A stretch of DNA of 29,397 bases from an uncultured archaeon (GCA_964342815.1 CAYFHS010000045.1:1-29397); one strand, 5' to 3'. Positions 264 through 20,368 are shown, counted from the stretch's first letter. The notes: a model not told the origin generated them from the sequence alone. Program-made: numbers and translations.

Positions 264-3254
264 ATGGCCGGTCAAATAAGTAAAACCACTCCCTCGTTCT
301 CATGGGACTTCAGTTATGAGGATTACGAGAAGTTCTTTCATAGCTATCATAACCTGATGGGTTTCAAGATACAGAACATCCTTCTTGTTTCCAGCCCTTA
401 CGACGCCTTCATACTCAATGAGGACGGACGGCTATCCGAACAGATAATAGAAGAATACCTGGAACTTGGTCTCTCCTCGGCGCCAAGACTCTACAGCGTC
501 CCTTCCGGAAAAAGGGCTCTACAGGAATTAAAGAAAAGAAAATACGATTTAGTTATTACTATGAGCCAGATATTCGACATTGACCCGGCTGAATTCGGCA
601 GAAGAGCGAAGAAGCTTCGACCGGGGGTTCCTGTTGTACTTCTTGCCACCGATAATATCACAGTTGCGAACTATCAGGTTCCGGGAGATCACAGCAGTTT
701 CGACAAGGTCTTCCAATGGCTGGGCGATTCGGCTCTGTTCCTTGCAATCATCAAGTATTTCGAGGATATAAAGAATGTCGACAAGGATACCAAGGGAGCA
801 AACGTCAGGGTCATTGTCGTCGTGGAGGATTCGGCAAGATATTATTCCTCCTTTTTACCCATAATATACAAAGAGGTAATGCAGCAGACCAAAGCATTGG
901 TCTCCGAAGGTCTGAATGAGCACGAGAAGAGGGTCCGGAGGCGAAGGAGGCCGAAAATATTGCTGGCCGAGACCTTCGAAGAAGCCTTGAGAGAATACAA
1001 AAAATATCACAAGTACATTCTCGGCATCATCACTGATATCTCCTTTGAGAGGAACGGAGAGAGATGTATCGATGCGGGATTTCAATTCGCGGAGAAACTC
1101 GACAAAAACATACCTGTTCTCTTCCAATCGTCCGATGAAAAACATTCCGAGCGTGCAAGGGTAATGCAGCATCCGTTCCTCAACAAGAATTCTCGGACTC
1201 TCCTCCGTGATCTGTCGGATTTCCTCACCCAGGAACTGGGATTCGGAGATTTCATATTCCGCATGCACGATAGCACCGAGATTGGAAGAGCGGCAGATCT
1301 GAAGGAACTGGTGAAGCTCATCAGGGAAGTACCCCCAGAATCGCTTCGTTTCCATGAGAAGCGATTCCAATTTTCCCGATGGTTGTTCGCCAGGGGAGAG
1401 TTGGACCTCGCAACGAAGATACGCAAAAAGAAGTTCTCGGATTTTGAGTCAGTAGACGAGATGAGAGACTTTCTCATAAACGGGATCGAGAAGACGAGAA
1501 AAAAGAGACAGACCGGCATCATTACTGATTTTTCGCAGCAGAGCTTTGAGTTCGAGAGGTCTTTTACACGGTTCGGCAGAGGTTCGCTCGGTGGAAAGGG
1601 AAGGGGGATCGCTTTTCTCTCGGCCATGCTTCGCATGAGCAAGATCAACAAAATACTGCCCGAGTTCAACATCCGCATCCCCGATACGCTCGTAATAACC
1701 ACGGAAGAGTTCACCCTCTTCGTCCGGGAGAACGGGCTGCATGAGATTGTCCATATCGATTTTTCCGACCGGGAGATGGCCCATCACTTCGTATCGGGAT
1801 CATTGAGAGATGAGTTGAAGAAAGCTCTCTTGAGGTATCTGAAGCATGTCCGGGTTCCATTGGCCGTGCGCTCATCGAGCCTTCTTGAGGACTCACTCCA
1901 TCAGCCCTTCGCAGGTATTTATTCGACATATCTATTAGCAAACAACAACGAGGATATTGAAAAGAGATTGGAGCAGTTATGTTCCGCGATAAAGCTGGTT
2001 TACGCCTCGACCTATTACCACGATGCCCAAACATATATTGACAGCACGTCCCAGAAAGTGGAAGAGGAAAAGATGGGTGTAGTGATACAGAAATTGGTAG
2101 GAGATGTTCATGGTGATAGGTTCTATCCTCTGTTTTCGGGTACGGGGGTATCGCGTAATTATTATCCTCTCCCTCCTCTGAAAAGAGATTCGGGTATTGT
2201 CTCTGTTGCCATCGGCCTCGGTAAGATGGTTGTAGACGGGGGTAAGGTTCTAAGTTTTTCCCCTGAAAATCCAAAGGTTTATCCAGGGTTCTCCACAACT
2301 GAGGAAATACTTCAAAATTCTCAACGACAATTCTACTGCGTTGATCTGGCCCACAGGGATTTTGATCTCACAGAGGGAGAAGATGCGACACTTAGGATCG
2401 TGAACATCTCCGATGCTGAAAAGGACGGAATACTGGAGCTTACTGCCAGTGTCTATAACCCAAATGATGACATTATTCGGGATGGACCGTACCATGAGGG
2501 GTCAAAGGTCATAACCTTTGCCGGTATTCTGAAATATGAGAGGTATCCCCTGGCAAGTATTCTCCGAAACCTTCTTGAGATCGGTTCCAGAAGTCTTGGG
2601 GGTTCCGTGGAGATCGAATTCGCGGTTTCGTACGGACGCGAAAATAAACTTGAATTCCACATCCTCCAAATACGTCCCATTATATCCAACAAAGAGAAGA
2701 GCCAGGTCTTGATAGAGGAATCGGAGAATAAAAATGGGATCATCATCTTTTCGAATAAGGCCATGGGTAACGGGTTGATTGATAACATTTCCGATATTGT
2801 CATGGTTCTCCCCTCAGAAATGGATAGAACTCAGACCCAATTGATAGCCCATGAGATAAGCGAGATAAATTCAACTATGAAAAACAGACCATATATCCTT
2901 CTGGGACCGGGAAGATGGGGCAGCTTCGATCGATGGCTGGGAATACCTATCAGATGGAGTCAGATATCCCGGGTTGGAGCCATTGTTGAGGCGCCCATGC
3001 CGGACATTGACGTCACCCATTCACACGGTTCTCACTTCTTTCACAATATATCCGCCATGGGAATCCCCTATCTGAGCGTGTCTGACAGTTCTTCCGAAGA
3101 TAGAATAGATTGGGAATGGCTGAGAAAATTGAAGGTCGAAAAGAAAGGCCGTTTCGTCAGGCACGCCCACCTCGAAAAACCGCTGATAATCAAGGTAAAC
3201 GGCAAGGATGGGAAAGGTATTGTGTTGATAAGTGAGGGATCTAATTCATCGTAG
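264..3254 (+). CDS. PEP/pyruvate-binding (PPDK_N ATP-grasp) domain protein with two N-terminal receiver-like domains and a divergent C-terminal His-swivel domain
   Basis: 996-aa ORF. PPDK_N motifs present: GSLGGKGRG, PLAVRSSSLLED, FAGIYST, MGVVIQ, VEIEFA, ILQIRP. The N-terminus has REC-like motifs (YDLVITM; VVVEDS...GIITDISF...FQSS...FLNK). The C-terminus has AIVE...GSHFFHNISAMGIP. Confidence 0.88.
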   Translation: MAGQISKTTPSFSWDFSYEDYEKFFHSYHNLMGFKIQNILLVSSPYDAFILNEDGRLSEQIIEEYLELGLSSAPRLYSVPSGKRALQELKKRKYDLVITMSQIFDIDPAEFGRRAKKLRPGVPVVLLATDNITVANYQVPGDHSSFDKVFQWLGDSALFLAIIKYFEDIKNVDKDTKGANVRVIVVVEDSARYYSSFLPIIYKEVMQQTKALVSEGLNEHEKRVRRRRRPKILLAETFEEALREYKKYHKYILGIITDISFERNGERCIDAGFQFAEKLDKNIPVLFQSSDEKHSERARVMQHPFLNKNSRTLLRDLSDFLTQELGFGDFIFRMHDSTEIGRAADLKELVKLIREVPPESLRFHEKRFQFSRWLFARGELDLATKIRKKKFSDFESVDEMRDFLINGIEKTRKKRQTGIITDFSQQSFEFERSFTRFGRGSLGGKGRGIAFLSAMLRMSKINKILPEFNIRIPDTLVITTEEFTLFVRENGLHEIVHIDFSDREMAHHFVSGSLRDELKKALLRYLKHVRVPLAVRSSSLLEDSLHQPFAGIYSTYLLANNNEDIEKRLEQLCSAIKLVYASTYYHDAQTYIDSTSQKVEEEKMGVVIQKLVGDVHGDRFYPLFSGTGVSRNYYPLPPLKRDSGIVSVAIGLGKMVVDGGKVLSFSPENPKVYPGFSTTEEILQNSQRQFYCVDLAHRDFDLTEGEDATLRIVNISDAEKDGILELTASVYNPNDDIIRDGPYHEGSKVITFAGILKYERYPLASILRNLLEIGSRSLGGSVEIEFAVSYGRENKLEFHILQIRPIISNKEKSQVLIEESENKNGIIIFSNKAMGNGLIDNISDIVMVLPSEMDRTQTQLIAHEISEINSTMKNRPYILLGPGRWGSFDRWLGIPIRWSQISRVGAIVEAPMPDIDVTHSHGSHFFHNISAMGIPYLSVSDSSSEDRIDWEWLRKLKVEKKGRFVRHAHLEKPLIIKVNGKDGKGIVLISEGSNSS

Positions 3255-13858: not shown

Positions 13859-13877
13859 ATCCAGTTTCTCCCGGGTA

Positions 13878-16085
13878 TTATTTTCCGAATAATCCGATCA
13901 ATGCGGTCCCCGATATCTTCATCACATAGACCTGCCGGCCGGTTTCCACGTCGACGGCGGCGGAGAACATGTCCCCCTGCTCATACACGCTGCCTTTCCA
14001 GAATATCCAGCCGTAATTTGCCGACGGCATCACGATGCCGGTTATCTGCTGTACTATCTGGACACCTGGCATATCCGCCGTTGTCGCGCCTTTGGATATT
14101 GATATTTCCTGATCTCTCATGTCGAGGTTCCCGTTCCGGTCGAATAATTCCGTTCCGGCCATCTCGTCCGCAGCCACGATATCCACCGCCCCCGACAGGG
14201 TGCATCCCAATTCATCCAGGTCCGTGCGCTTCTTTTCCGTCCACCCGTCATTTCTGCCGTAATCCTTGTCCATTTCAACCTCTGCCGAGTAAGGATTCAA
14301 TGGGTTGATATTTTTGGTAATGTTCTTGGCCACCCGTGCAGTATAGATGTGTTCAGGCCAATCGAATTTTTCTTTATCCCCAGTGTCCTCCTCCGCTCTT
14401 TTCCCATCCTTTTCCTCTACGTCCTCATCATCCTCGTGCTCTTTTTCATATTCACTGTAGTCTTCGTAATAGGGTTCGAGCTCTTTCTGGCTCATATAAT
14501 CGGCAAGTGTAATATTCCAGTAATGACTGCCTGCGGTGTTCTGGGGGTCAAGCGTGGACAAGGTTGCATTGTAAGTGCCCGCTATGGCAAGGGAACCCGG
14601 GAACTCGCTGTTGAAATCCGACAAGCCAGGACTCTCCTCTAAAAGATACTCCAGAGCCGCATCGGGAGCCATCTGAACCGCCAGGTCCGGGTTTTTAGGA
14701 TCGGTTATTTCGGTATTATCGAATTTGTAGCCGCCGCGCGGTATCATATCCCATTCCTGGAATTCGCCCAAAGGGTGCTTATCAGCAAAGGAAGCGGCTG
14801 AATTTACCCAGGGTATTGGCGATGAACCGCGTTCATGGCCGCTGCTAAGGATCCGATCCTGTTCAATGATTATCCATCCGGTATCGTTCCCCTTTGACCA
14901 GCTGGTATTGGTACGTATGAAAGTCCTTGTGGGATAGGGCGTATTGCTTGACAACCATACTGTTTCGGTGAAGTCCAAAAAGCCCCATATCCTCCTGGTA
15001 ATATTTACCCGCATGGAGGGGAAACCTGCCACGTTCTCCATTTCCTCGGCGGTCCAGTTGTAGTATCCTGCTGCGTCCTCCCCCTCCATTCCCGAACCTT
15101 CATAATAGATGCTGCCCTCATCCCCCAGGGTGATGTCCTTATCCTTGTATATCAGGTCCTCAATGCTGGGTTGAACCTCTTCCTCGGGATCCGGGTATGT
15201 TCTCACATACCCCTTGTATTGCACCGGCACCGGGATCTCCGCTTGCGGCAGCTGGTCAACTCCCATTTCTCCTTCATTGACAACCTTTATGAGCGTTCCT
15301 TCTTCCAGTTCGAAGTATTCGGACCTATCCGCGCTGAATGTTCCTGCCACCGATACTTTTCCGATATCGGGGGAATCTATGCTGACGGTGAATGAACCGT
15401 CCGCCTGCTTTCGTTCTAGTACCGTTTGATATATTTCTCCAAATCCCGATTCAGCATCAACCGGCCCGTATACTCCGAAATCCCACTGGCCGTTTCCATT
15501 CAAAGCATACCTTTCATACTCTCCGCTGGACGTATTCTCGTTGTAAAGCTCGGCAAATATGGTAAAATCATACCGGTATTCATCTCCGATATGGAGCGGA
15601 GGCTGGTGAACGACATAGTCCTCTATAACCTTATCATCCTTCGGTATGAGAATTGTGGTCATGGTCAGGGTCACCGTGGAACCCGAGATTGCGGTTATCA
15701 AGACCTGCAGATCGTATATATCATCGTTATCCGTATCCACGTTTTCCGGGATATTCAAGGTGGCCGTGAGCTCCACGGGGTCAGACTCGATGATGAGCGT
15801 CACCGTATCTCCGGAAATGGCCGTAATGGTTACGGTATGGGTCACTGCGCCGACTGTTATTTCCCTGGCTGTGTTCAATTCAAGATTAACTGAGGAGGAA
15901 TCTCCCTGTTGATCGGGGCCGCCGGCAGGATCGTCGCGGACCTCATTTCCATCCTTCCCTCCCTCCCCCACGTCATTGGAAGTGTTATCGAAAAAACCAA
16001 AGTACACCACATTAATGAGTAGACCCACAATACACAGGGAAATAATCATCGTTCGAATTTTTACCATGTTCATGACCACTTTCAA
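13878..16085 (-). CDS. Membrane-anchored/secreted protein of unknown function
   Basis: 735-aa uninterrupted ORF with an N-terminal TM (MIISLCIVGLLINVVYFGFF), a Thr/Val-rich module carrying an internal ITAISGxTVTL repeat, and a large acidic beta-rich remainder. Confidence 0.8.
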   Translation of the reverse strand: MKVVMNMVKIRTMIISLCIVGLLINVVYFGFFDNTSNDVGEGGKDGNEVRDDPAGGPDQQGDSSSVNLELNTAREITVGAVTHTVTITAISGDTVTLIIESDPVELTATLNIPENVDTDNDDIYDLQVLITAISGSTVTLTMTTILIPKDDKVIEDYVVHQPPLHIGDEYRYDFTIFAELYNENTSSGEYERYALNGNGQWDFGVYGPVDAESGFGEIYQTVLERKQADGSFTVSIDSPDIGKVSVAGTFSADRSEYFELEEGTLIKVVNEGEMGVDQLPQAEIPVPVQYKGYVRTYPDPEEEVQPSIEDLIYKDKDITLGDEGSIYYEGSGMEGEDAAGYYNWTAEEMENVAGFPSMRVNITRRIWGFLDFTETVWLSSNTPYPTRTFIRTNTSWSKGNDTGWIIIEQDRILSSGHERGSSPIPWVNSAASFADKHPLGEFQEWDMIPRGGYKFDNTEITDPKNPDLAVQMAPDAALEYLLEESPGLSDFNSEFPGSLAIAGTYNATLSTLDPQNTAGSHYWNITLADYMSQKELEPYYEDYSEYEKEHEDDEDVEEKDGKRAEEDTGDKEKFDWPEHIYTARVAKNITKNINPLNPYSAEVEMDKDYGRNDGWTEKKRTDLDELGCTLSGAVDIVAADEMAGTELFDRNGNLDMRDQEISISKGATTADMPGVQIVQQITGIVMPSANYGWIFWKGSVYEQGDMFSAAVDVETGRQVYVMKISGTALIGLFGK

Positions 16086-16168
16086 ATTGTATTCAAAATA
16101 TTGTGGGATATTTCAAACATAATGTTAGATATATCGCACTTCGGTTATTAATAGGTTCGTGGTTTTTT

Positions 16169-18586
16169 TTAATAAGAGGACTCACGACGAGAGAGGCTGT
16201 CCAATTCCGGCATTTCTGTTTTGCCTTTCGGACTCCCACTCACCAGAACAACTTCTCCCTTTGTCCCGTTAACCACCACCTCCTGCCCATCGTAAAATAG
16301 TTCCGTGGCCTTATTTACTTGCGCCACGGTTGGTATACCAAACTCACGGGCCAATATCGCTCCATGGGATAATATTCCCCCGACCTCCAGGATCAGAGCT
16401 CCCGCCAATGAGAACGCCTGGGTCTGCCCTGGGTCTATGCTTCTGGTAACAAGAACCTCTCCAGGTGAAATCACACTACCCGAATCGATATTCTGGATCA
16501 CCTTGATTTTTCCTTTGAAACTTCCCCCTGAAACCGATTCACCCTTGATTATTCTCCCCTCCCCGTGCACTTCATCCGATAAATATATTGAATCGAAGTC
16601 CACCCCATTGCGGAGGTAAAGGCCTGGTTTATCATCACTCTCACGGAATGTTAACCTCCTCAATGCCGCGATGCAGCCGAGGCCATCTTTTCCTTCTCTT
16701 AAGTAACCCTGAATCTCACCTATTTCAAGAAAAAAAATGTCCTCCTTCTCCTCGATAATCCCATCTTCTACCATTACATCACCCATGGCAAGGAACAGCA
16801 ATCTCATTCTGGAGAGTATCATGTCGAGATAAAAGCGCTGGAGCTCGCGGAAAGCCACATATCTAACAAGGTAACGGGAAAGGAATTTAAACATGGGTCT
16901 CTTGTATATAGGTATCAGGTCCAATATCTCCCGAAGAGCTCTCTTTCGCTCCCTTATACCATTTGTCTTGGCAGCCAGGGGATCGTGCCCACTCGTGTCG
17001 AGCACCATATTCTTGAGCATGATGAAAGGGATCATGGGCTCGTCGCTCCAGGACGGTTCGATCAGGTCTCTGGCGAGCCTTCTATGGCCGTATCTGAAGA
17101 GTATGGACTCGAATGCCTCGATGAATTGCCTGCCCTGTTTTATAACTCCAAGTTCCTTCCGGTATCCATGGTATGTTTTTTCATCCTTCTGAAGTATTCT
17201 TCTCACCTTACTGTCGCGCTTGAACTTCTTTGAAAGTATCTGGAGTTCCTCGATACCCTCCATAGTTCTGTTCTTCGGGAGACCGGACATGAGGGAAAGG
17301 AGCTTCCCTCCCGGGTCCTTTATATGACTTCTCTCAAGGAAATGGAACATGAGACTCGTGAGCAATATACAGTAGCCCATGCCCCATTTCGATGCCCTGA
17401 TGTGTTCTATCTGAAGTTCGATTAACTTGTGATATTGTTTTTCCATATCCTTGCGGTTCGGTTTTATTTCATCCAGCGTCTCAAGGCTGGAAAGTATGGC
17501 CGGGACAGTTCTTCGGATAAACTCCCGGTCCACCCTTGCAATATTGAGTTGGGGTTTCCTAAATAGCAGGACGGCGAGCCTTAAAAGGAGAAATATGGCA
17601 CCTCCAACGTTCCAATTCCGATGGTATTCATACTCTTTCCTGATGTCCTCTGGCAGCACCTTGAGCTGCTGCTGGAAATTGCTCGAACCGATAGCTCTAT
17701 CCAGCGCGTATTCGGTCCATCGGGTACTGACGTACATATGATCCTTGTGACGTATAAGCAGGGGTTCCTGAGATGTGGCATCCACTCCTCCCTCATTTAG
17801 CGTTTCACCCACATAGTATCCTTCATAAAGGAACTTGAATAAAGAATAGAAAAGCGGAGTTACCGGGCCTGAAAAGAACTGTTCGGCCATGACCATACTG
17901 TAGGTAGGTCCCGCTTCCTTTGGGGGGACCGGCAAGGCAGTGATCGGTCTTACTTGTAATAAATGAAAAATCTTCCCGGTCCTGGCCCACTCTATGTCCA
18001 AGGGGTAGCCGAAGAATGACTCCAATCTCACCCCGATACCCACGAGTTTCTTGAACCTCTTATCGTTGTTACCCGCCCTTTTCGGGTTCTTCTTACCGGA
18101 GACTAAAGCTTCACACATACCTTCCACATACTCGACGACCTTTTCATCCGCCCCGGTGACTGGGTCCCTGGTGAACATGACCCCTGCAATATCAGGATTC
18201 AATTGCTCCTGCAGTATAACGGCCATATCCCCCCCGGCTGCCGATTGCCATACACCTTCAACGGCTTCAATGAGTTTAGAAAGAAAGTTCACGTTCGCAA
18301 TGGTGGTGAATACACCGGCTTTGGAGCTTTGTGCAGTATCCTCCGTCACTGACGACGATCGGGCGATAAGTATGCCATCCCACTTCGAGAATTCCTCGGT
18401 CAGCTCATCGAAAAGTTGACCGGAAATGCCCTCTTGGGAGAAGTCCCTAAACGCCTCTGTTGAAACTACTGAGCAGGGTGGAACGTTCACACCAAGAAGC
18501 ATCATTTTCTGGAGGTTGAAGGCCTTGACGCCTATAACCTCGGTCCTCCATCGGGTCTCCTTGCTCAGCTCAACGATGTATCTCAA
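16169..18586 (-). CDS. PEP-utilising enzyme with RPH/PigC-type architecture (ATP-grasp, helical substrate domain, phospho-His swivel domain)
   Basis: N-terminal IGVKAFNL, IARSSSVTED, KAGVFTT, AVILQEQL, DIEWA, LLQVRPIT. Helical middle region with F...YGHR. C-terminal GEVLVT...DPG...GGILSHGAILAREFGIP (His741). Confidence 0.9.
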   Translation of the reverse strand: MRYIVELSKETRWRTEVIGVKAFNLQKMMLLGVNVPPCSVVSTEAFRDFSQEGISGQLFDELTEEFSKWDGILIARSSSVTEDTAQSSKAGVFTTIANVNFLSKLIEAVEGVWQSAAGGDMAVILQEQLNPDIAGVMFTRDPVTGADEKVVEYVEGMCEALVSGKKNPKRAGNNDKRFKKLVGIGVRLESFFGYPLDIEWARTGKIFHLLQVRPITALPVPPKEAGPTYSMVMAEQFFSGPVTPLFYSLFKFLYEGYYVGETLNEGGVDATSQEPLLIRHKDHMYVSTRWTEYALDRAIGSSNFQQQLKVLPEDIRKEYEYHRNWNVGGAIFLLLRLAVLLFRKPQLNIARVDREFIRRTVPAILSSLETLDEIKPNRKDMEKQYHKLIELQIEHIRASKWGMGYCILLTSLMFHFLERSHIKDPGGKLLSLMSGLPKNRTMEGIEELQILSKKFKRDSKVRRILQKDEKTYHGYRKELGVIKQGRQFIEAFESILFRYGHRRLARDLIEPSWSDEPMIPFIMLKNMVLDTSGHDPLAAKTNGIRERKRALREILDLIPIYKRPMFKFLSRYLVRYVAFRELQRFYLDMILSRMRLLFLAMGDVMVEDGIIEEKEDIFFLEIGEIQGYLREGKDGLGCIAALRRLTFRESDDKPGLYLRNGVDFDSIYLSDEVHGEGRIIKGESVSGGSFKGKIKVIQNIDSGSVISPGEVLVTRSIDPGQTQAFSLAGALILEVGGILSHGAILAREFGIPTVAQVNKATELFYDGQEVVVNGTKGEVVLVSGSPKGKTEMPELDSLSRRESSY

Positions 18587-19671
18587 TGTTTTCGCCCCTC
18601 TCTCCTCTTCCTAATTTCTAAGAGTGCCCCGACCTTGTGGAACGGGTTTGCGTCATGAATCTGACGCTCCAGAAGACCATAGCCGACCTCCCCGCCGTAG
18701 TCCATCCTTGCAATAGTTTCGTAGACGATGCATTTGGGCATAGGCATAGGAACTGAACTGAGTACCTCACAATTGACGTTATGTTCCCGTCCGTTTTCGT
18801 CCTTAAACGATATCTTGCATCCCGTTGGCTCTTTCCCGTTGGGGGCGAATTGGCCGCGCACCTTAGCTGAGACTATTTCGAGGTTTTTTCCCGACTCGAA
18901 GATATAACCTGCCATGAACTTTTTTCTGCCAGTGGATCCCTTCCAAAGATTGAAGGCTTTTTCTCTCCCGAAGGTGCCGCAAAAAAGCCAGTACTCATCG
19001 ATGGCGGTCCAGTCCCTGATACCCCATGAATGGTCCCTATGACCCGGACAGGGGCCAAATTTTATTTTTTGTCCATTTAATTTTATTCTACCTTCGAAGA
19101 TTCCGGCCTGTTCGATGTGCTGCGAGGCAAGCTTTCTAAACAAATCAACCCCGTTTTTATTCTGATCTTTGGTATACGAAAAAAATTCATTCAGAGGTCG
19201 GAAAAGAATATCAAGATCGCATTTCTTGGAGTGATACCGCAGCCGCCAGTCAATCCCCTCAACCTGGTAAGATAAACTACCAAGTCGGAAACGATCGGTT
19301 TCGTGCAATTTTATATCTCTCGAAAGGAGGGGCTTGCCTATTACAATTCTTCCGTTACGCAGGACGATGACAAAGCCAGTGCACCTTCTTCTTTTATTTG
19401 GAATGATTCCGATTGTGGTTATCAGGCTCAATCCGGTTTTTTTGTCGGTGGCGTTAAAATAGTAGCTCTCGCGCCAGTTTTTTTCAATATATTCTCCCGT
19501 GAAGCTCCTCTGCTGCTTCAGGAGGAGAGAAAGATTATCGATTTCGATGTAGCTCAGACGAGACGGTTTTGTCGCTGATTCATCAGCCCGTTTATTCCCT
19601 TCTCTTTTAATAATTTCCACCTTTAAGGGGCCATAGATACATTGCGCTCGGAAGAAAAGTGCGGAATCCAC
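18583..19671 (-). CDS. CrtC/AttH/tocopherol-cyclase-like beta-barrel protein
   Basis: Motifs NWRESYYF, HIEQAGIFEGRI, GHRDHSWGIRDW and terminal GYGLLE. ATGA overlap with the PEP-utilising gene. The start is uncertain (GTG 19671 or GTG 19620). Confidence 0.7.
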   Translation of the reverse strand: MDSALFFRAQCIYGPLKVEIIKREGNKRADESATKPSRLSYIEIDNLSLLLKQQRSFTGEYIEKNWRESYYFNATDKKTGLSLITTIGIIPNKRRRCTGFVIVLRNGRIVIGKPLLSRDIKLHETDRFRLGSLSYQVEGIDWRLRYHSKKCDLDILFRPLNEFFSYTKDQNKNGVDLFRKLASQHIEQAGIFEGRIKLNGQKIKFGPCPGHRDHSWGIRDWTAIDEYWLFCGTFGREKAFNLWKGSTGRKKFMAGYIFESGKNLEIVSAKVRGQFAPNGKEPTGCKISFKDENGREHNVNCEVLSSVPMPMPKCIVYETIARMDYGGEVGYGLLERQIHDANPFHKVGALLEIRKRREGRKH

Positions 19672-19867
19672 ATTCTTCTACATTCATCATAAAGTAAATG
19701 GCGGTTCGTTGAGTCATATGTCGCCAAATAGCTTTATCGGAACTTGACTTCGTTTATTCTTCCTCTGAATCAATACATATTTGAGCGCCAAATTTTTTTT
19801 TATTTCTTACTCTTAAAGGATACACAGTTTTTTACATTTTCCATAAAATGAGGGTGATTTCGTATAA

Positions 19868-20368
19868 CTAATATATTTCCCCGCACCGCGTGCATTTGTA
19901 GCTTACGCCATCGATGAATTTGATCTCGCTAAAACCGCATTTCGGGCAGTTTCCGTTCTTTCCCGGTGGTTCGATCTTCCGCTCCATGACATCCTTTTTT
20001 AATTTTAGTTCTTGCACTCCAAACAGTTTAAAACAGATGATAAATGCTACCCCCGCCATGATGATCAGAGGTATGTTGAAATATACTGCAGCCATCCCTA
20101 TGCTGTAGTGCCCGAGATTAAGAGAATATATCAATATCAGCTCGATTACGGCATAGCCAATATTTATCAGTGAGATCCAGATGCCAACCTTTGGCCCCCA
20201 GTAATCTGCTTTCCAGATACTGATGGCCGCAACGAATGTAACAAACCACTGCACCCTGTCGATAATGGTCCACGTGACCGACCACACACAAACCATTATT
20301 GATAGTATTGTTATCAAAAGAAATAGGAACATGCAGATGATACGCATGGTTCGATTATTATCGTTCAT
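19868..20368 (-). CDS. Multi-pass (about 4 TM) membrane protein with C-terminal C4 Zn ribbon
   Basis: Hydrophobic N-terminal 120 aa, then CPKCG-x-CTRCG (C-x2-C-x14-C-x2-C). SD GAGGT. Confidence 0.8.
   Translation of the reverse strand: MNDNNRTMRIICMFLFLLITILSIMVCVWSVTWTIIDRVQWFVTFVAAISIWKADYWGPKVGIWISLINIGYAVIELILIYSLNLGHYSIGMAAVYFNIPLIIMAGVAFIICFKLFGVQELKLKKDVMERKIEPPGKNGNCPKCGFSEIKFIDGVSYKCTRCGEIY
19881..19954. repeat. 74-bp dispersed direct repeat, copy 1 (encodes the Zn ribbon)
   Basis: 61/74 identical, ungapped, to 21935..22008 by manual alignment. Confidence 0.9.

What the first reader, a model, noticed from the sequence alone, without database searches (positions are those of the whole stretch)
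16169..19671. Coupled CrtC/AttH-like protein and RPH/PigC-type dikinase-fold enzyme: candidate undescribed two-step pathway for a hydrophobic substrate
Seen: the two genes overlap by ATGA (18583-18586) and are flanked by non-coding gaps, so they form a self-contained unit. The 805-aa enzyme has the ATP-grasp/helical/His741 order of rifampicin phosphotransferase and the prodigiosin condensing enzyme PigC, not the PEPS order. Its ATP-grasp domain is compact. The partner has RESYYF and GHRDHSWGIRDW motifs reminiscent of CrtC hydratase, AttH and tocopherol cyclase double barrels, which act on isoprenoid or aromatic lipophiles. No antibiotic or pigment biosynthesis genes are nearby. Inference: the barrel hydrates, cyclises or presents a lipophilic molecule, such as an isoprenoid alcohol or sterol/quinone-like compound, and the dikinase-fold enzyme phosphorylates or activates it. 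This is the strongest novel-enzymology candidate in the window.
Basis: partly seen in the sequence, partly recalled or inferred. Interest (0 to 1): 0.75.

Follow-up and report, generated by a model that had tools for sequence, protein, structure and literature searches.

The report
Kinase plus phosphate-lyase alcohol-removal gene pair
Two overlapping genes in an uncultured archaeon encode a rifampicin-phosphotransferase-like kinase and a relative of a recently solved phosphosteroid lyase, and they probably work together to remove a stubborn hydroxyl group from an unknown oily molecule by phosphorylating it and then expelling the phosphate.

Summary
Two minus-strand genes (19671-18583, 18586-16169) overlap by 4 nt; the overlap is TTGA, not ATGA. 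The 805-aa enzyme has the rifampin phosphotransferase (RPH) domain order: compact ATP-grasp, helical domain, His741 swivel. It scores far below the RPH, PigC and RedH family cut-offs. The 362-aa partner (DUF7065+DUF7064) has the AttH-type double barrel. Its only sequence-detectable solved relative is 25-phosphosteroid lyase (25-PSL, PDB 9FZN), and it keeps the Asp of the RDxSWG motif.

The pairing is conserved. All intact orthologous Thermoplasmatota loci have the kinase next to the barrel gene. Distant relatives pair the barrel with RPH-like enzymes, split dikinase parts or unrelated APH kinases. Full fusions exist, including a 1178-aa protein that aligns with both window proteins.

Best reading (0.55): the kinase acts first (ATP to AMP + Pi, through His741) and the barrel then eliminates phosphate. 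The result is an ATP-driven dehydration like 25-HSK/25-PSL of Sterolibacterium, but with a different kinase class. The substrate is unknown and no activity was tested.

Earlier notes of this scan (e1-3984080, e1-2322484) reached the same reading on other genomes.

Verdict: a new variant of a known kind.

The parts
18583..19671 (-). Gene for the DUF7065+DUF7064 double-barrel protein (P0002, 362 aa from GTG 19671; the alternative GTG at 19620 gives 345 aa). Putative phosphoester lyase.
   Evidence: ORF. Pfam DUF7064 69.6 bits (cut-off 24.7) and DUF7065 26.1 bits (cut-off 27). The family profile hits 25-PSL 9FZN at E 5e-15. AF2 model pLDDT 81 with an AttH-type fold.
16169..18586 (-). Gene for the RPH-like His-swivel phosphotransferase (P0001, 805 aa, TTG start).
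   Evidence: ORF. Pfam PPDK_N + PEP-utilizers. Best PDB relative is RPH-Lm 5FBS/5HV1 at E 5e-51. The only full-length structural match is RPH-Lm.
18583..18586 (-). Four-base overlap TTGA: the TTG start of the kinase gene over the TGA stop of the barrel gene.
   Evidence: Sequence read.
19456..19476 (-). WRESYYF motif (residues 66-72). W66, E68 and Y71 are invariant. Aligns with FYDRYYF of 25-PSL.
19009..19044 (-). GHRDHSWGIRDW motif (residues 210-221). The D213 codon is 19033-19035. Aligns with GSRDRSWGVR of 25-PSL. PDB entry 9G4C carries Asn at this Asp.
   Evidence: Invariant G210-G217 and R219. Alignments to 9FZN and 9G4C.
17933..18586 (-). Compact ATP-grasp nucleotide-binding domain (residues 1-218).
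   Evidence: PPDK_N match. Invariant K21, R76, E199, Q211, R213. Three deletions relative to 905-aa relatives.
16469..17932 (-). Central, mostly helical domain (residues 219-706), in the position of the rifampin-binding domain of RPH. Presumed acceptor-substrate site.
   Evidence: AF2 secondary structure. Alignment of residues 433-781 with RPH-Lm. Foldseek full-length match to 5HV1.
16256..16468 (-). PEP-utilizers mobile (swivel) domain (residues 707-777). The catalytic His741 codon is 16364-16366.
   Evidence: Pfam 69.7 bits. H741 is invariant and aligns with the RPH swivel motif GGLMTHGAVIARE.
19672..19867 (-). Upstream non-coding gap (196 nt, A/T-rich) with a TATA-like TTTACTTTATGA at 19687-19698, 16-27 nt before GTG 19671. 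Presumed promoter of the two-gene unit.
   Evidence: Sequence. The promoter function is inferred only.
16086..16168 (-). Downstream non-coding gap (83 nt). The next gene (13878-16085) is an unrelated membrane-anchored surface protein with no homologue in any related locus.

Best explanation
The two genes most likely encode a two-step, ATP-driven phosphorylate-then-eliminate machine.

Step 1 (inferred from family membership). The 805-aa enzyme binds ATP in its ATP-grasp domain and passes a phosphoryl group to His741 on the swivel domain. The swivel delivers it to a hydroxyl group of a substrate held in the central helical domain, giving a phosphoester plus AMP and Pi, as in rifampin phosphotransferase.

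Step 2 (inferred from homology to 25-phosphosteroid lyase and from gene linkage). The double-barrel protein binds the phosphoester. It uses the conserved Arg/His-rich RDHSWGxR motif, with Asp213 and Glu68, to expel phosphate. This leaves an alkene, or a carbocation-derived product.

Net reaction. Removal of a poorly reactive hydroxyl, probably tertiary or otherwise hindered, from a lipophilic molecule without oxygen. Spending ATP to AMP + Pi would make a thermodynamically marginal phosphorylation irreversible.

The substrate is unknown. The module is an accessory trait, patchy among relatives and deleted in a sister species.
For: 1. Closest relative of the barrel. Its family profile matches only 25-PSL in the whole PDB (E 5e-15), and P0002 alone gives E 4.7e-6. 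Identity to 25-PSL is 20-21% in structural alignment, against 10-13% for the other superfamily members. The matches cover YYFN, the Q of HxEQ, RDxSWGxR and GYGxxE. The Asp that 9G4C replaces by Asn is invariant here. The 9G2I and 9G4C titles show bound phosphate and the alkene product.

2. How 25-PSL works. [quoted passage not shown]

3. Gene linkage to kinases. Of 79 genome loci, 52 have a kinase-type gene within 3 genes: 27 with a full RPH-like enzyme (22 adjacent), 12 with an APH kinase, the rest with split dikinase parts. All 9 intact orthologous Thermoplasmatota loci have the kinase immediately downstream. Five of five more distant Thermoplasmatota genomes have it immediately upstream.

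4. Two unrelated kinase folds are linked to the same barrel family, which points to the phosphoester as the shared element.

5. Fusions.
- P0111 (1178 aa) aligns full-length with P0001 (E 2e-71) and with P0002 (E 2e-36). It occurs on 5 contigs, including an NCBI Thermoplasmata MAG.
- PPDK_N-barrel fusions: P0122, P0153 and L068.
- An APH-SCP2-barrel fusion: P0182, on 11 or more contigs.

6. Partner type tracks the barrel phylogeny. The window sits in an 11-row clade (SH-aLRT 98) in which every member has the kinase downstream, except one with a truncated kinase.

7. The kinase looks catalytically intact. ATP-grasp residues and His741 are invariant, and the RPH-like three-domain fold is predicted at pLDDT 84.

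8. Precedents in the kinase family. RPH converts rifampin and ATP to phospho-rifampin, AMP and Pi (PMC4844700). HapC/PigC form a phosphorylated intermediate before condensation (PMC13534948).
Against: - No biochemical data exist for either protein or any close relative.
- Identity to 25-PSL is only about 17-21%, and P0002 has His where 25-PSL has Ser and Arg in the motif (GHRDHS vs GSRDRS).
- 25-PSL itself is not encoded next to its kinase (PMC8449060).
- No close homologue of the molybdenum steroid C25 hydroxylases was found in this genome with the one query used, and no lipid-metabolism genes flank the pair. Nothing at this locus indicates what supplies the alcohol.
- The 25-PSL publication could not be found in the held library, so the catalytic role of the Asp rests on PDB titles and sequences only.
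Confidence: 0.55

Rival explanations
1. Same two steps, but the phosphate serves as a leaving group for chemistry other than simple elimination. The barrel would cyclise, isomerise or substitute the carbocation or activated carbon, acting like a terpene-cyclase or pericyclase that uses a monophosphate ester made on demand.
Against: Only 25-PSL is detectable by sequence. There are no biosynthetic genes around the pair in this window or in the orthologous loci.
Confidence: 0.15
2. One reading: the barrel acts first as a hydratase, cyclase or presenting protein on a lipophilic alkene, and the kinase then phosphorylates the new alcohol as the end product.
Against: - Gene order is reversed (kinase first) in most other lineages and in the full fusion P0111.
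- The closest characterised relative binds phosphate and eliminates it.
- The motif conserved with 25-PSL is rich in Arg and His, as expected for a phosphate site.
- A stable phospho-alcohol product has no evident use here.
Confidence: 0.12
3. Xenobiotic or antibiotic inactivation. The RPH-like enzyme phosphorylates a toxic hydrophobic compound (rifamycin-like, phenolic or flavonoid) for resistance, and the barrel protein degrades or sequesters the product.
For: RPH is the closest solved relative of the kinase. The trait is patchy and accessory and is deleted in a sister species. A divergent HTH_10 regulator accompanies the pair in 7 related loci, as in inducible detoxification units.
Against: The kinase scores 205 bits against the RPH equivalog cut-off of 999. 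RPH needs no partner. The barrel's linkage to APH+SCP2 and to molybdenum-hydroxylase contexts in relatives points to catabolism of sterol- or isoprenoid-like compounds rather than resistance.
Confidence: 0.08
4. The barrel protein is a non-catalytic accessory subunit of the kinase (substrate carrier or specificity factor), as small subunits are in phenylphosphate synthase or HpeHI-type split dikinases.
For: Split dikinase systems with extra subunits exist (PMC12167813). In Asgard loci the barrel sits among separate ATP-grasp and swivel proteins.
Against: Nineteen residues are invariant, including charged His/Arg/Asp/Glu residues in motifs shared with an active lyase. This argues for catalysis. 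The window's kinase already has a complete central domain.
Confidence: 0.05

Closest known systems
25-hydroxysteroid kinase (25-HSK) / 25-phosphosteroid lyase (25-PSL) of Sterolibacterium denitrificans (PMC8449060, PMC7411048; PDB 9FZN, 9G2I, 9G4C)
   Same: The two-step logic is the same: a kinase makes a phosphoester of an unreactive alcohol, then a lyase expels phosphate. The barrel protein is homologous to 25-PSL (profile E 5e-15). It shares the YYFN, RDxSWGxR and GYGxxE motifs and the AttH-type double barrel.
   Different: - The kinase here is an RPH-like His-swivel enzyme, expected to convert ATP to AMP + Pi. 25-HSK is a 40-kDa APH-family kinase that makes ADP in a fully reversible reaction.
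- Here the genes overlap, or are fused in relatives. The 25-PSL gene is not near the 25-HSK gene.
- Identity is only 17-21%.
- The motif has His for Ser and Arg.
- The host is an archaeon in which no close steroid C25 dehydrogenase was found with the query used.
- The substrate is unknown.
Rifampin phosphotransferase RPH (PDB 5FBS, 5HV1; PMC4844700)
   Same: Same three-domain order (ATP-grasp, helical substrate domain, C-terminal His swivel) and the same swivel motif with a catalytic His. RPH is the only full-length structural match.
   Different: - 205 bits against the NCBIfam equivalog cut-off of 999.
- 19-22% identity in the full-length structural matches to RPH-Lm.
- The ATP-grasp is about 100 aa shorter.
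- An obligate barrel partner is present, which RPH lacks.
Prodiginine ligases PigC / HapC / RedH (PMC13534948)
   Same: Same architecture. A phosphorylated oxygen intermediate is made and consumed in a second chemical step.
   Different: PigC and HapC carry out both steps in one protein and condense two pyrroles. Here the second step is assigned to a separate barrel protein. Scores are 153 and 200 bits against cut-offs of 1300 and 1350. No pig or red genes are nearby.
AttH / CrtC carotenoid 1,2-hydratase / kievitone hydratase / fungal decalin-forming Diels-Alderases (PDB 2ICH, 7A0T, 7E5T, 6KAW)
   Different: There is no detectable sequence relationship: no PDB sequence hit and no Pfam CrtC/AttH family hit. 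They do not act on phosphoesters and are not linked to kinases.
Split aromatic dikinases: phenylphosphate synthase and HpeHI (PMC12167813; PDB 9GOJ)
   Same: They belong to the same dikinase superfamily and phosphorylate hydroxyl groups of hydrophobic small molecules. The ATP-grasp matches HpeI.
   Different: Those enzymes are multi-subunit and phosphorylate phenols to prepare for carboxylation. They have no barrel lyase partner.

Membership tests
Rifamycin-inactivating phosphotransferase RPH (NCBIfam NF041857, NF000283) | Domain order: ATP-grasp, then substrate-binding helical domain, then C-terminal His swivel domain | tested here: met
   Pfam PPDK_N at the N-terminus and PEP-utilizers at 707-777. 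Full-length Foldseek match to 5HV1, E 1e-35, TM 0.60.
Rifamycin-inactivating phosphotransferase RPH (NCBIfam NF041857, NF000283) | Catalytic phospho-carrier His in the swivel motif | tested here: met
   His741 in GGILSHGAILARE aligns with the His of GGLMTHGAVIARE in RPH-Lm. It is invariant in 22 relatives.
Rifamycin-inactivating phosphotransferase RPH (NCBIfam NF041857, NF000283) | Score at or above the curated equivalog cut-off | tested here: not met
   205.5 bits vs 999, and 141 bits vs 1700. No match over the cut-off anywhere in the genome.
Rifamycin-inactivating phosphotransferase RPH (NCBIfam NF041857, NF000283) | Phosphorylates rifamycins | not testable with these tools
   Needs an enzyme assay.
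Prodiginine ligases PigC / RedH (NF052631, NF052632) | Score at or above the curated cut-off, and a pig/red biosynthetic context | tested here: not met
   153 bits vs 1300 and 199.9 bits vs 1350. No pigment genes among the neighbours.
PEP synthase / pyruvate, water dikinase (TIGR01418) | Central swivel domain followed by a C-terminal PEP/pyruvate-binding domain | tested here: not met
   The swivel domain is C-terminal and no PEP-utilizers_C match was found. 137 bits vs 739.75.
25-phosphosteroid lyase (25-PSL) family | Detectable sequence homology to 25-PSL | tested here: met
   Profile of 18 family members vs PDB: 9FZN at E 5.1e-15, with no other credible hit. P0002 alone: E 4.7e-6.
25-phosphosteroid lyase (25-PSL) family | AttH-type double beta-barrel fold | tested here: met
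25-phosphosteroid lyase (25-PSL) family | Conserved Asp of the RDxSWG motif (replaced by Asn in PDB 9G4C) | tested here: met
   D213 in GHRDHSWG aligns with GSRDRSWG (9FZN) and GSRNRSWG (9G4C). It is invariant in the family. That this Asp is catalytic is inferred from the deposited variant, not read from a paper.
25-phosphosteroid lyase (25-PSL) family | Works downstream of a small-molecule kinase | tested here: met
   The link is genetic only: the genes overlap here, are adjacent in 22 of 79 loci for RPH-like kinases and within 3 genes in 12 of 79 for APH kinases, and are fused in P0111, P0122, P0153 and P0182. The kinase class differs from 25-HSK.
25-phosphosteroid lyase (25-PSL) family | Eliminates phosphate from 25-phosphosteroids, within a steroid C25/C26 molybdenum hydroxylase pathway | tested here: inconclusive
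   Activity is not testable here. With one Mo-hydroxylase query from an APH-type locus, only weak generic molybdopterin-enzyme hits were found in this 89%-complete genome.
Pfam DUF7064 (PF23212) / DUF7065 (PF23213); NCBIfam Rv3169 family (NF053593) | Scores over the curated cut-offs | tested here: inconclusive
   DUF7064: 69.6 bits vs 24.7, met. DUF7065: 26.1 bits vs 27, just under. Rv3169_fam: 79 bits vs 150, not met. The protein is a DUF7064 member in a subfamily outside the Rv3169 model.
CrtC / AttH sequence families | Match to the CrtC or AttH Pfam models | tested here: not met
   No such family at E <= 0.01. The resemblance is at fold level only.

The most novel reading that the evidence does not exclude
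RPH-like dikinase plus 25-PSL-like barrel pairs form a widespread, uncharacterised enzyme class in anaerobic archaea and bacteria. The family has about 2400 representatives clustered at 50% identity. The class would spend two phosphoanhydride bonds to convert unreactive (tertiary) alcohols of isoprenoid, sterol or hopanoid-type lipids irreversibly into alkenes or carbocation-derived products without oxygen. The dikinase would solve the problem that tertiary phosphoesters are as energy-rich as ATP. In Thermoplasmatota the substrate could be an archaeal or sedimentary isoprenoid lipid.
Probability: 0.3. Interest if true: 0.8.

Novelty: new variant of a known kind. Interest (0 to 1): 0.62.

Why it matters
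ATP-dependent dehydration through a phosphoester was, as of 2021, known from only two systems: the steroid side-chain cascade of Sterolibacterium and NAD(P)HX repair (PMC8449060). The lyase structure was released only in 2026.

This locus, its fused relatives and its conserved synteny suggest the strategy is much more widespread. They also suggest it has been assembled at least twice, with unrelated kinases. The His-swivel dikinase version has not been described in the papers searchable here.

The finding assigns a testable function to DUF7064/DUF7065 and to a large set of genes annotated as "phosphoenolpyruvate synthase". It also points to oxygen-independent routes for breaking down recalcitrant lipid alcohols in sediments, and to possible biocatalysts for dehydrating tertiary alcohols.

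Tried and rejected
- Complex prediction. The kinase's central and swivel domains (residues 220-783) were folded with the barrel (38-362). The result was no verdict: three runs scored 0.80, 0.00 and 0.00, after five unreachable attempts. This is evidence neither for nor against binding.
- Fused forms of close relatives. The word-based search for longer proteins found none. The exhaustive HMM search did find fusions among distant relatives.
- Literature. No paper mentions DUF7064 or DUF7065. The Rv3169 papers are incidental gene lists. The 25-PSL structure paper is not in the held library, and one query was rejected for syntax.
- Reference tree against RPH, PigC and phenylphosphate synthase. No reference sequences could be fetched by reference; the control genomes give tallies only. 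NCBIfam cut-offs were used instead.
- The 'c1' partner family of Asgard and Bathyarchaeia loci. I tested whether it is a diverged central domain of the kinase. hhalign gave probability 0.2%, and there were no Pfam, NCBIfam or PDB matches.
- Anti-phage defence. No PADLOC match for either protein.
- The downstream 735-aa gene as a third component. It has no homologue in any related locus.
- Steroid C25 dehydrogenase in this genome. Only weak generic molybdoenzyme matches with the one query used.


Full report
**What is in the sequence**

The window comes from an 89%-complete, 4.35-Mb Thermoplasmatota metagenome-assembled genome. On the minus strand, ORF 19671-18583 (362 aa, GTG start) and ORF 18586-16169 (805 aa, TTG start) overlap by four bases. 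TTG is the first start codon in the frame, and the two closest orthologues align from residue 1, so translational coupling remains a fair inference.

The pair is bounded by a 196-nt A/T-rich gap upstream and an 83-nt gap downstream. The start of the first gene is uncertain. A second in-frame GTG lies at 19620, residues 1-37 are disordered in the model, and most homologues begin near residue 38.

Neighbouring genes encode YbjQ-domain proteins, small membrane proteins, an unrelated 735-aa surface protein, FG-GAP propellers and an ABC-2 exporter. None is a pigment, antibiotic or lipid-pathway gene.

**The 805-aa enzyme**

Pfam finds a PPDK_N ATP-grasp domain at the N-terminus and the PEP-utilizers mobile domain at residues 707-777. 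There is no PEP/pyruvate-binding domain. This is the order seen in rifampin phosphotransferase (RPH) and PigC, not in PEP synthase.

Its best solved relative by sequence is RPH of Listeria (E 5e-51). His741 in GGILSHGAILARE aligns with the RPH swivel motif GGLMTHGAVIARE. An AlphaFold2 model (pLDDT 84) has RPH-Lm as its only full-length structural match (E 1e-35, TM 0.55-0.60). Its ATP-grasp also resembles HpeI.

In an alignment of 22 relatives, K21, R76, E199, Q211, R213 and H741 are invariant. The Thermoplasmatota clade has lost about 100 residues of the ATP-grasp through three deletions, which confirms the "compact" description.

The protein fails every curated equivalog cut-off:

| Family | Score (bits) | Cut-off (bits) |
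|---|---|---|
| RPH | 205 | 999 |
| RedH | 200 | 1350 |
| PigC | 153 | 1300 |
| PEP synthase | 137 | 740 |

It is a member of the RPH-like superfamily but not of any characterised family.

**The 362-aa partner**

It carries DUF7064 (69.6 bits) and DUF7065 (26.1 bits, just under the cut-off). It gives a sub-threshold match to the NCBIfam Rv3169 family.

About 100 close homologues, nearly all unnamed, come from Thermoplasmatota metagenomes. Nineteen residues are invariant across 18 diverse members, including W66, E68 and Y71 (WRESYYF), Q188, and G210-H-R-D-H-S-W-G217 plus R219.

A profile of these sequences hits one thing in the whole PDB: 25-phosphosteroid lyase (25-PSL; 9FZN, 9G2I, 9G4C) at E 5e-15. 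P0002 alone gives E 4.7e-6. The alignment covers YYFN, the Q of HxEQ, RDxSWGxR and GYGxxE. Entry 9G4C carries Asn at the Asp that corresponds to D213.

The AlphaFold2 model (pLDDT 81) is a double beta-barrel. Foldseek ranks 25-PSL first (E 6e-16), followed by AttH, fungal Diels-Alderases and kievitone hydratase.

**Is the pairing real?**

Scanning one genome per species found 528 loci encoding relatives of the barrel protein. I examined the best 80.

- In the orthologous Thermoplasmatota loci, the kinase orthologue (39-65% identity) lies immediately downstream in 9 of 11. The other two carry a truncated kinase or a deletion.
- In five more distant Thermoplasmatota genomes, three of them single-contig, a full-length RPH-like gene lies immediately upstream in all five.
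- Among distant relatives in Actinomycetota, Chloroflexota, Acidobacteriota, Brockarchaeota and Thermoproteota, an RPH-like gene again abuts the barrel gene.
- Overall, 27 of 79 loci have a full-length RPH-like gene within three genes (22 adjacent) and 12 have an APH-family kinase. Others have split dikinase parts. In total 52 of 79 have a kinase-type neighbour.

An exhaustive HMM search of 1.84 billion cluster representatives found 2377 family members and several fusions:

- P0111 (1178 aa) has PPDK_N + central domain + swivel + DUF7065 + DUF7064. It aligns end to end with both window proteins (E 2e-71 and 2e-36). It occurs on five contigs, including an NCBI Thermoplasmata MAG.
- P0122, P0153 and L068 fuse an ATP-grasp domain to the barrel.
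- P0182 fuses APH + SCP2 + the barrel and occurs on at least 11 contigs.

On a maximum-likelihood tree of the barrel proteins, partner type is strongly clustered. The window falls in an 11-member clade (SH-aLRT 98) whose members all have the kinase downstream, apart from one with a truncated kinase.

**How it most likely works**

25-PSL is the second half of an ATP-dependent dehydratase. In Sterolibacterium, 25-HSK (an APH-family kinase) phosphorylates the tertiary 25-hydroxyl of steroid intermediates, and a separate C-O lyase eliminates phosphate to give the delta-24 alkene (PMC8449060, PMC7411048). The 9G2I and 9G4C titles show 25-PSL with phosphate and with the alkene product.

The same barrel family is linked, adjacent or fused, to two unrelated kinds of small-molecule O-kinase. 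This argues that the phosphoester is the shared element. The kinase makes it and the barrel consumes it.

For this window I therefore propose the following.

- *Step 1 (inferred from RPH; PMC4844700):* ATP is used through His741 to phosphorylate a hydroxyl on a substrate bound in the central helical domain, releasing AMP and Pi.
- *Step 2 (inferred from 25-PSL):* the barrel eliminates phosphate using D213 and E68 and the Arg/His-rich motif.

One further inference is worth stating. [quoted passage not shown] A dikinase that spends two anhydride bonds would drive such a phosphorylation to completion.

Gene order (lyase first here, kinase first elsewhere and in the fusion) carries no information about reaction order.

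**What remains unknown**

The substrate is not identified.

- Relatives give hints of lipophilic, sterol- or isoprenoid-like compounds. SCP2 sterol-carrier domains are fused to the APH-type modules. APH-type loci in Chloroflexota and Myxococcales are flanked by molybdopterin oxidoreductases, as in the Sterolibacterium cascade. Actinomycetota loci carry enoyl-CoA hydratase and flavoprotein genes.
- None of this surrounds the window's pair. One Mo-hydroxylase query found only weak generic matches in this genome.
- The module is accessory. Only 31 of 401 sampled Thermoplasmatota genomes have a relative at E <= 1e-10.
- A same-genus genome keeps synteny on both sides but has lost the 3' part of the barrel gene and the whole kinase gene.
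- Seven related loci carry a divergent HTH_10 regulator, which suggests inducible expression. The window does not have one.

**Rivals**

- The phosphate may serve as a leaving group for cyclisation or rearrangement rather than plain elimination. The barrel's fold relatives include pericyclases, and PigC/HapC use a phospho-intermediate for condensation.
It is disfavoured by the homology to a phosphate-eliminating enzyme.
- A resistance function like RPH's, and a non-catalytic role for the barrel, are less likely. The reasons are given under Rival explanations.

**Novelty**

The logic of kinase plus phospho-lyase is known from a single bacterial steroid pathway. Its coupling to an RPH-like dikinase, in translationally coupled or fused form and widespread in archaea, was not found in any paper searchable here.

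Earlier follow-up notes of this scan on other genomes (e1-3984080, e1-2322484) reached the same kinase-plus-lyase reading. I arrived at it independently from the PDB hit and re-tested it on this locus. I rate it a new variant of a known kind, of moderate to high interest. No biochemical activity has been shown, and the substrate is open.

Noticed in passing
L005 (same-genus MAG) versus window 13859-20005: The sister species keeps 79-89% identical synteny on both sides. It lacks window ~19030-16173 (the 3' 40% of the barrel gene plus the whole kinase gene) and 16102-13859 (the 735-aa surface-protein gene). What remains is a 234-aa barrel remnant, which also appears as protein cluster P0035 on 5 contigs. 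This looks like recent loss of the module.
   Followed up: partly
L004:6975-7334: In a Methanomassiliicoccales-labelled chromosome the barrel gene is intact, but the adjacent kinase ORF covers only residues 1-120. The kinase is probably decayed.
   Followed up: no
L057:3236-8142 (also L048, L037, L075, L061 and other Asgard, Bathyarchaeia and Thermoproteota loci): A split version of the system. It has a stand-alone ATP-grasp protein (~325 aa), a stand-alone swivel-domain protein (~120 aa), and a ~385-aa protein ('c1') with no Pfam, NCBIfam or PDB match. The c1 gene overlaps the start of the barrel gene. A 289-aa protein ending in a 2x[4Fe-4S] domain follows. c1 is not detectably related to the kinase's central domain. 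29 of 79 loci carry c1.
   Followed up: partly
L056, L058, L066 (Nitrososphaerota, Brockarchaeota and Thermoproteota MAGs): Two barrel paralogues sit tail to tail. One is paired with a full RPH-like enzyme and the other with the c1 protein, so both module types coexist at one locus.
   Followed up: no
L069:1926-12343; L033 and L038: APH kinase + barrel pairs in Chloroflexota and Myxococcales are flanked by molybdopterin oxidoreductases, an FAD amine-oxidase-like protein and a Zn alcohol dehydrogenase. These are candidates for Sterolibacterium-like anaerobic side-chain hydroxylation pathways outside Proteobacteria.
   Followed up: partly
L030:399-4907 and L017:1239-5807: About 1500-aa Actinomycetota proteins with one ATP-grasp followed by two successive central-domain + swivel units, directly upstream of the barrel gene.
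   Followed up: no
L006-L012, gene immediately upstream of the barrel gene on the opposite strand: A 223-225-aa HTH_10 (bacterio-opsin-activator-type) regulator is divergently placed in 7 Thermoplasmatota loci. It is absent from the window, where a small membrane protein gene (19868-20368) lies upstream.
   Followed up: no
window 264-3254 (+): A second PPDK_N-containing protein (996 aa) with a weak receiver-domain match and a DUF5752 match. It is another atypical dikinase-family gene in the same window and is not linked to a barrel gene.
   Followed up: no
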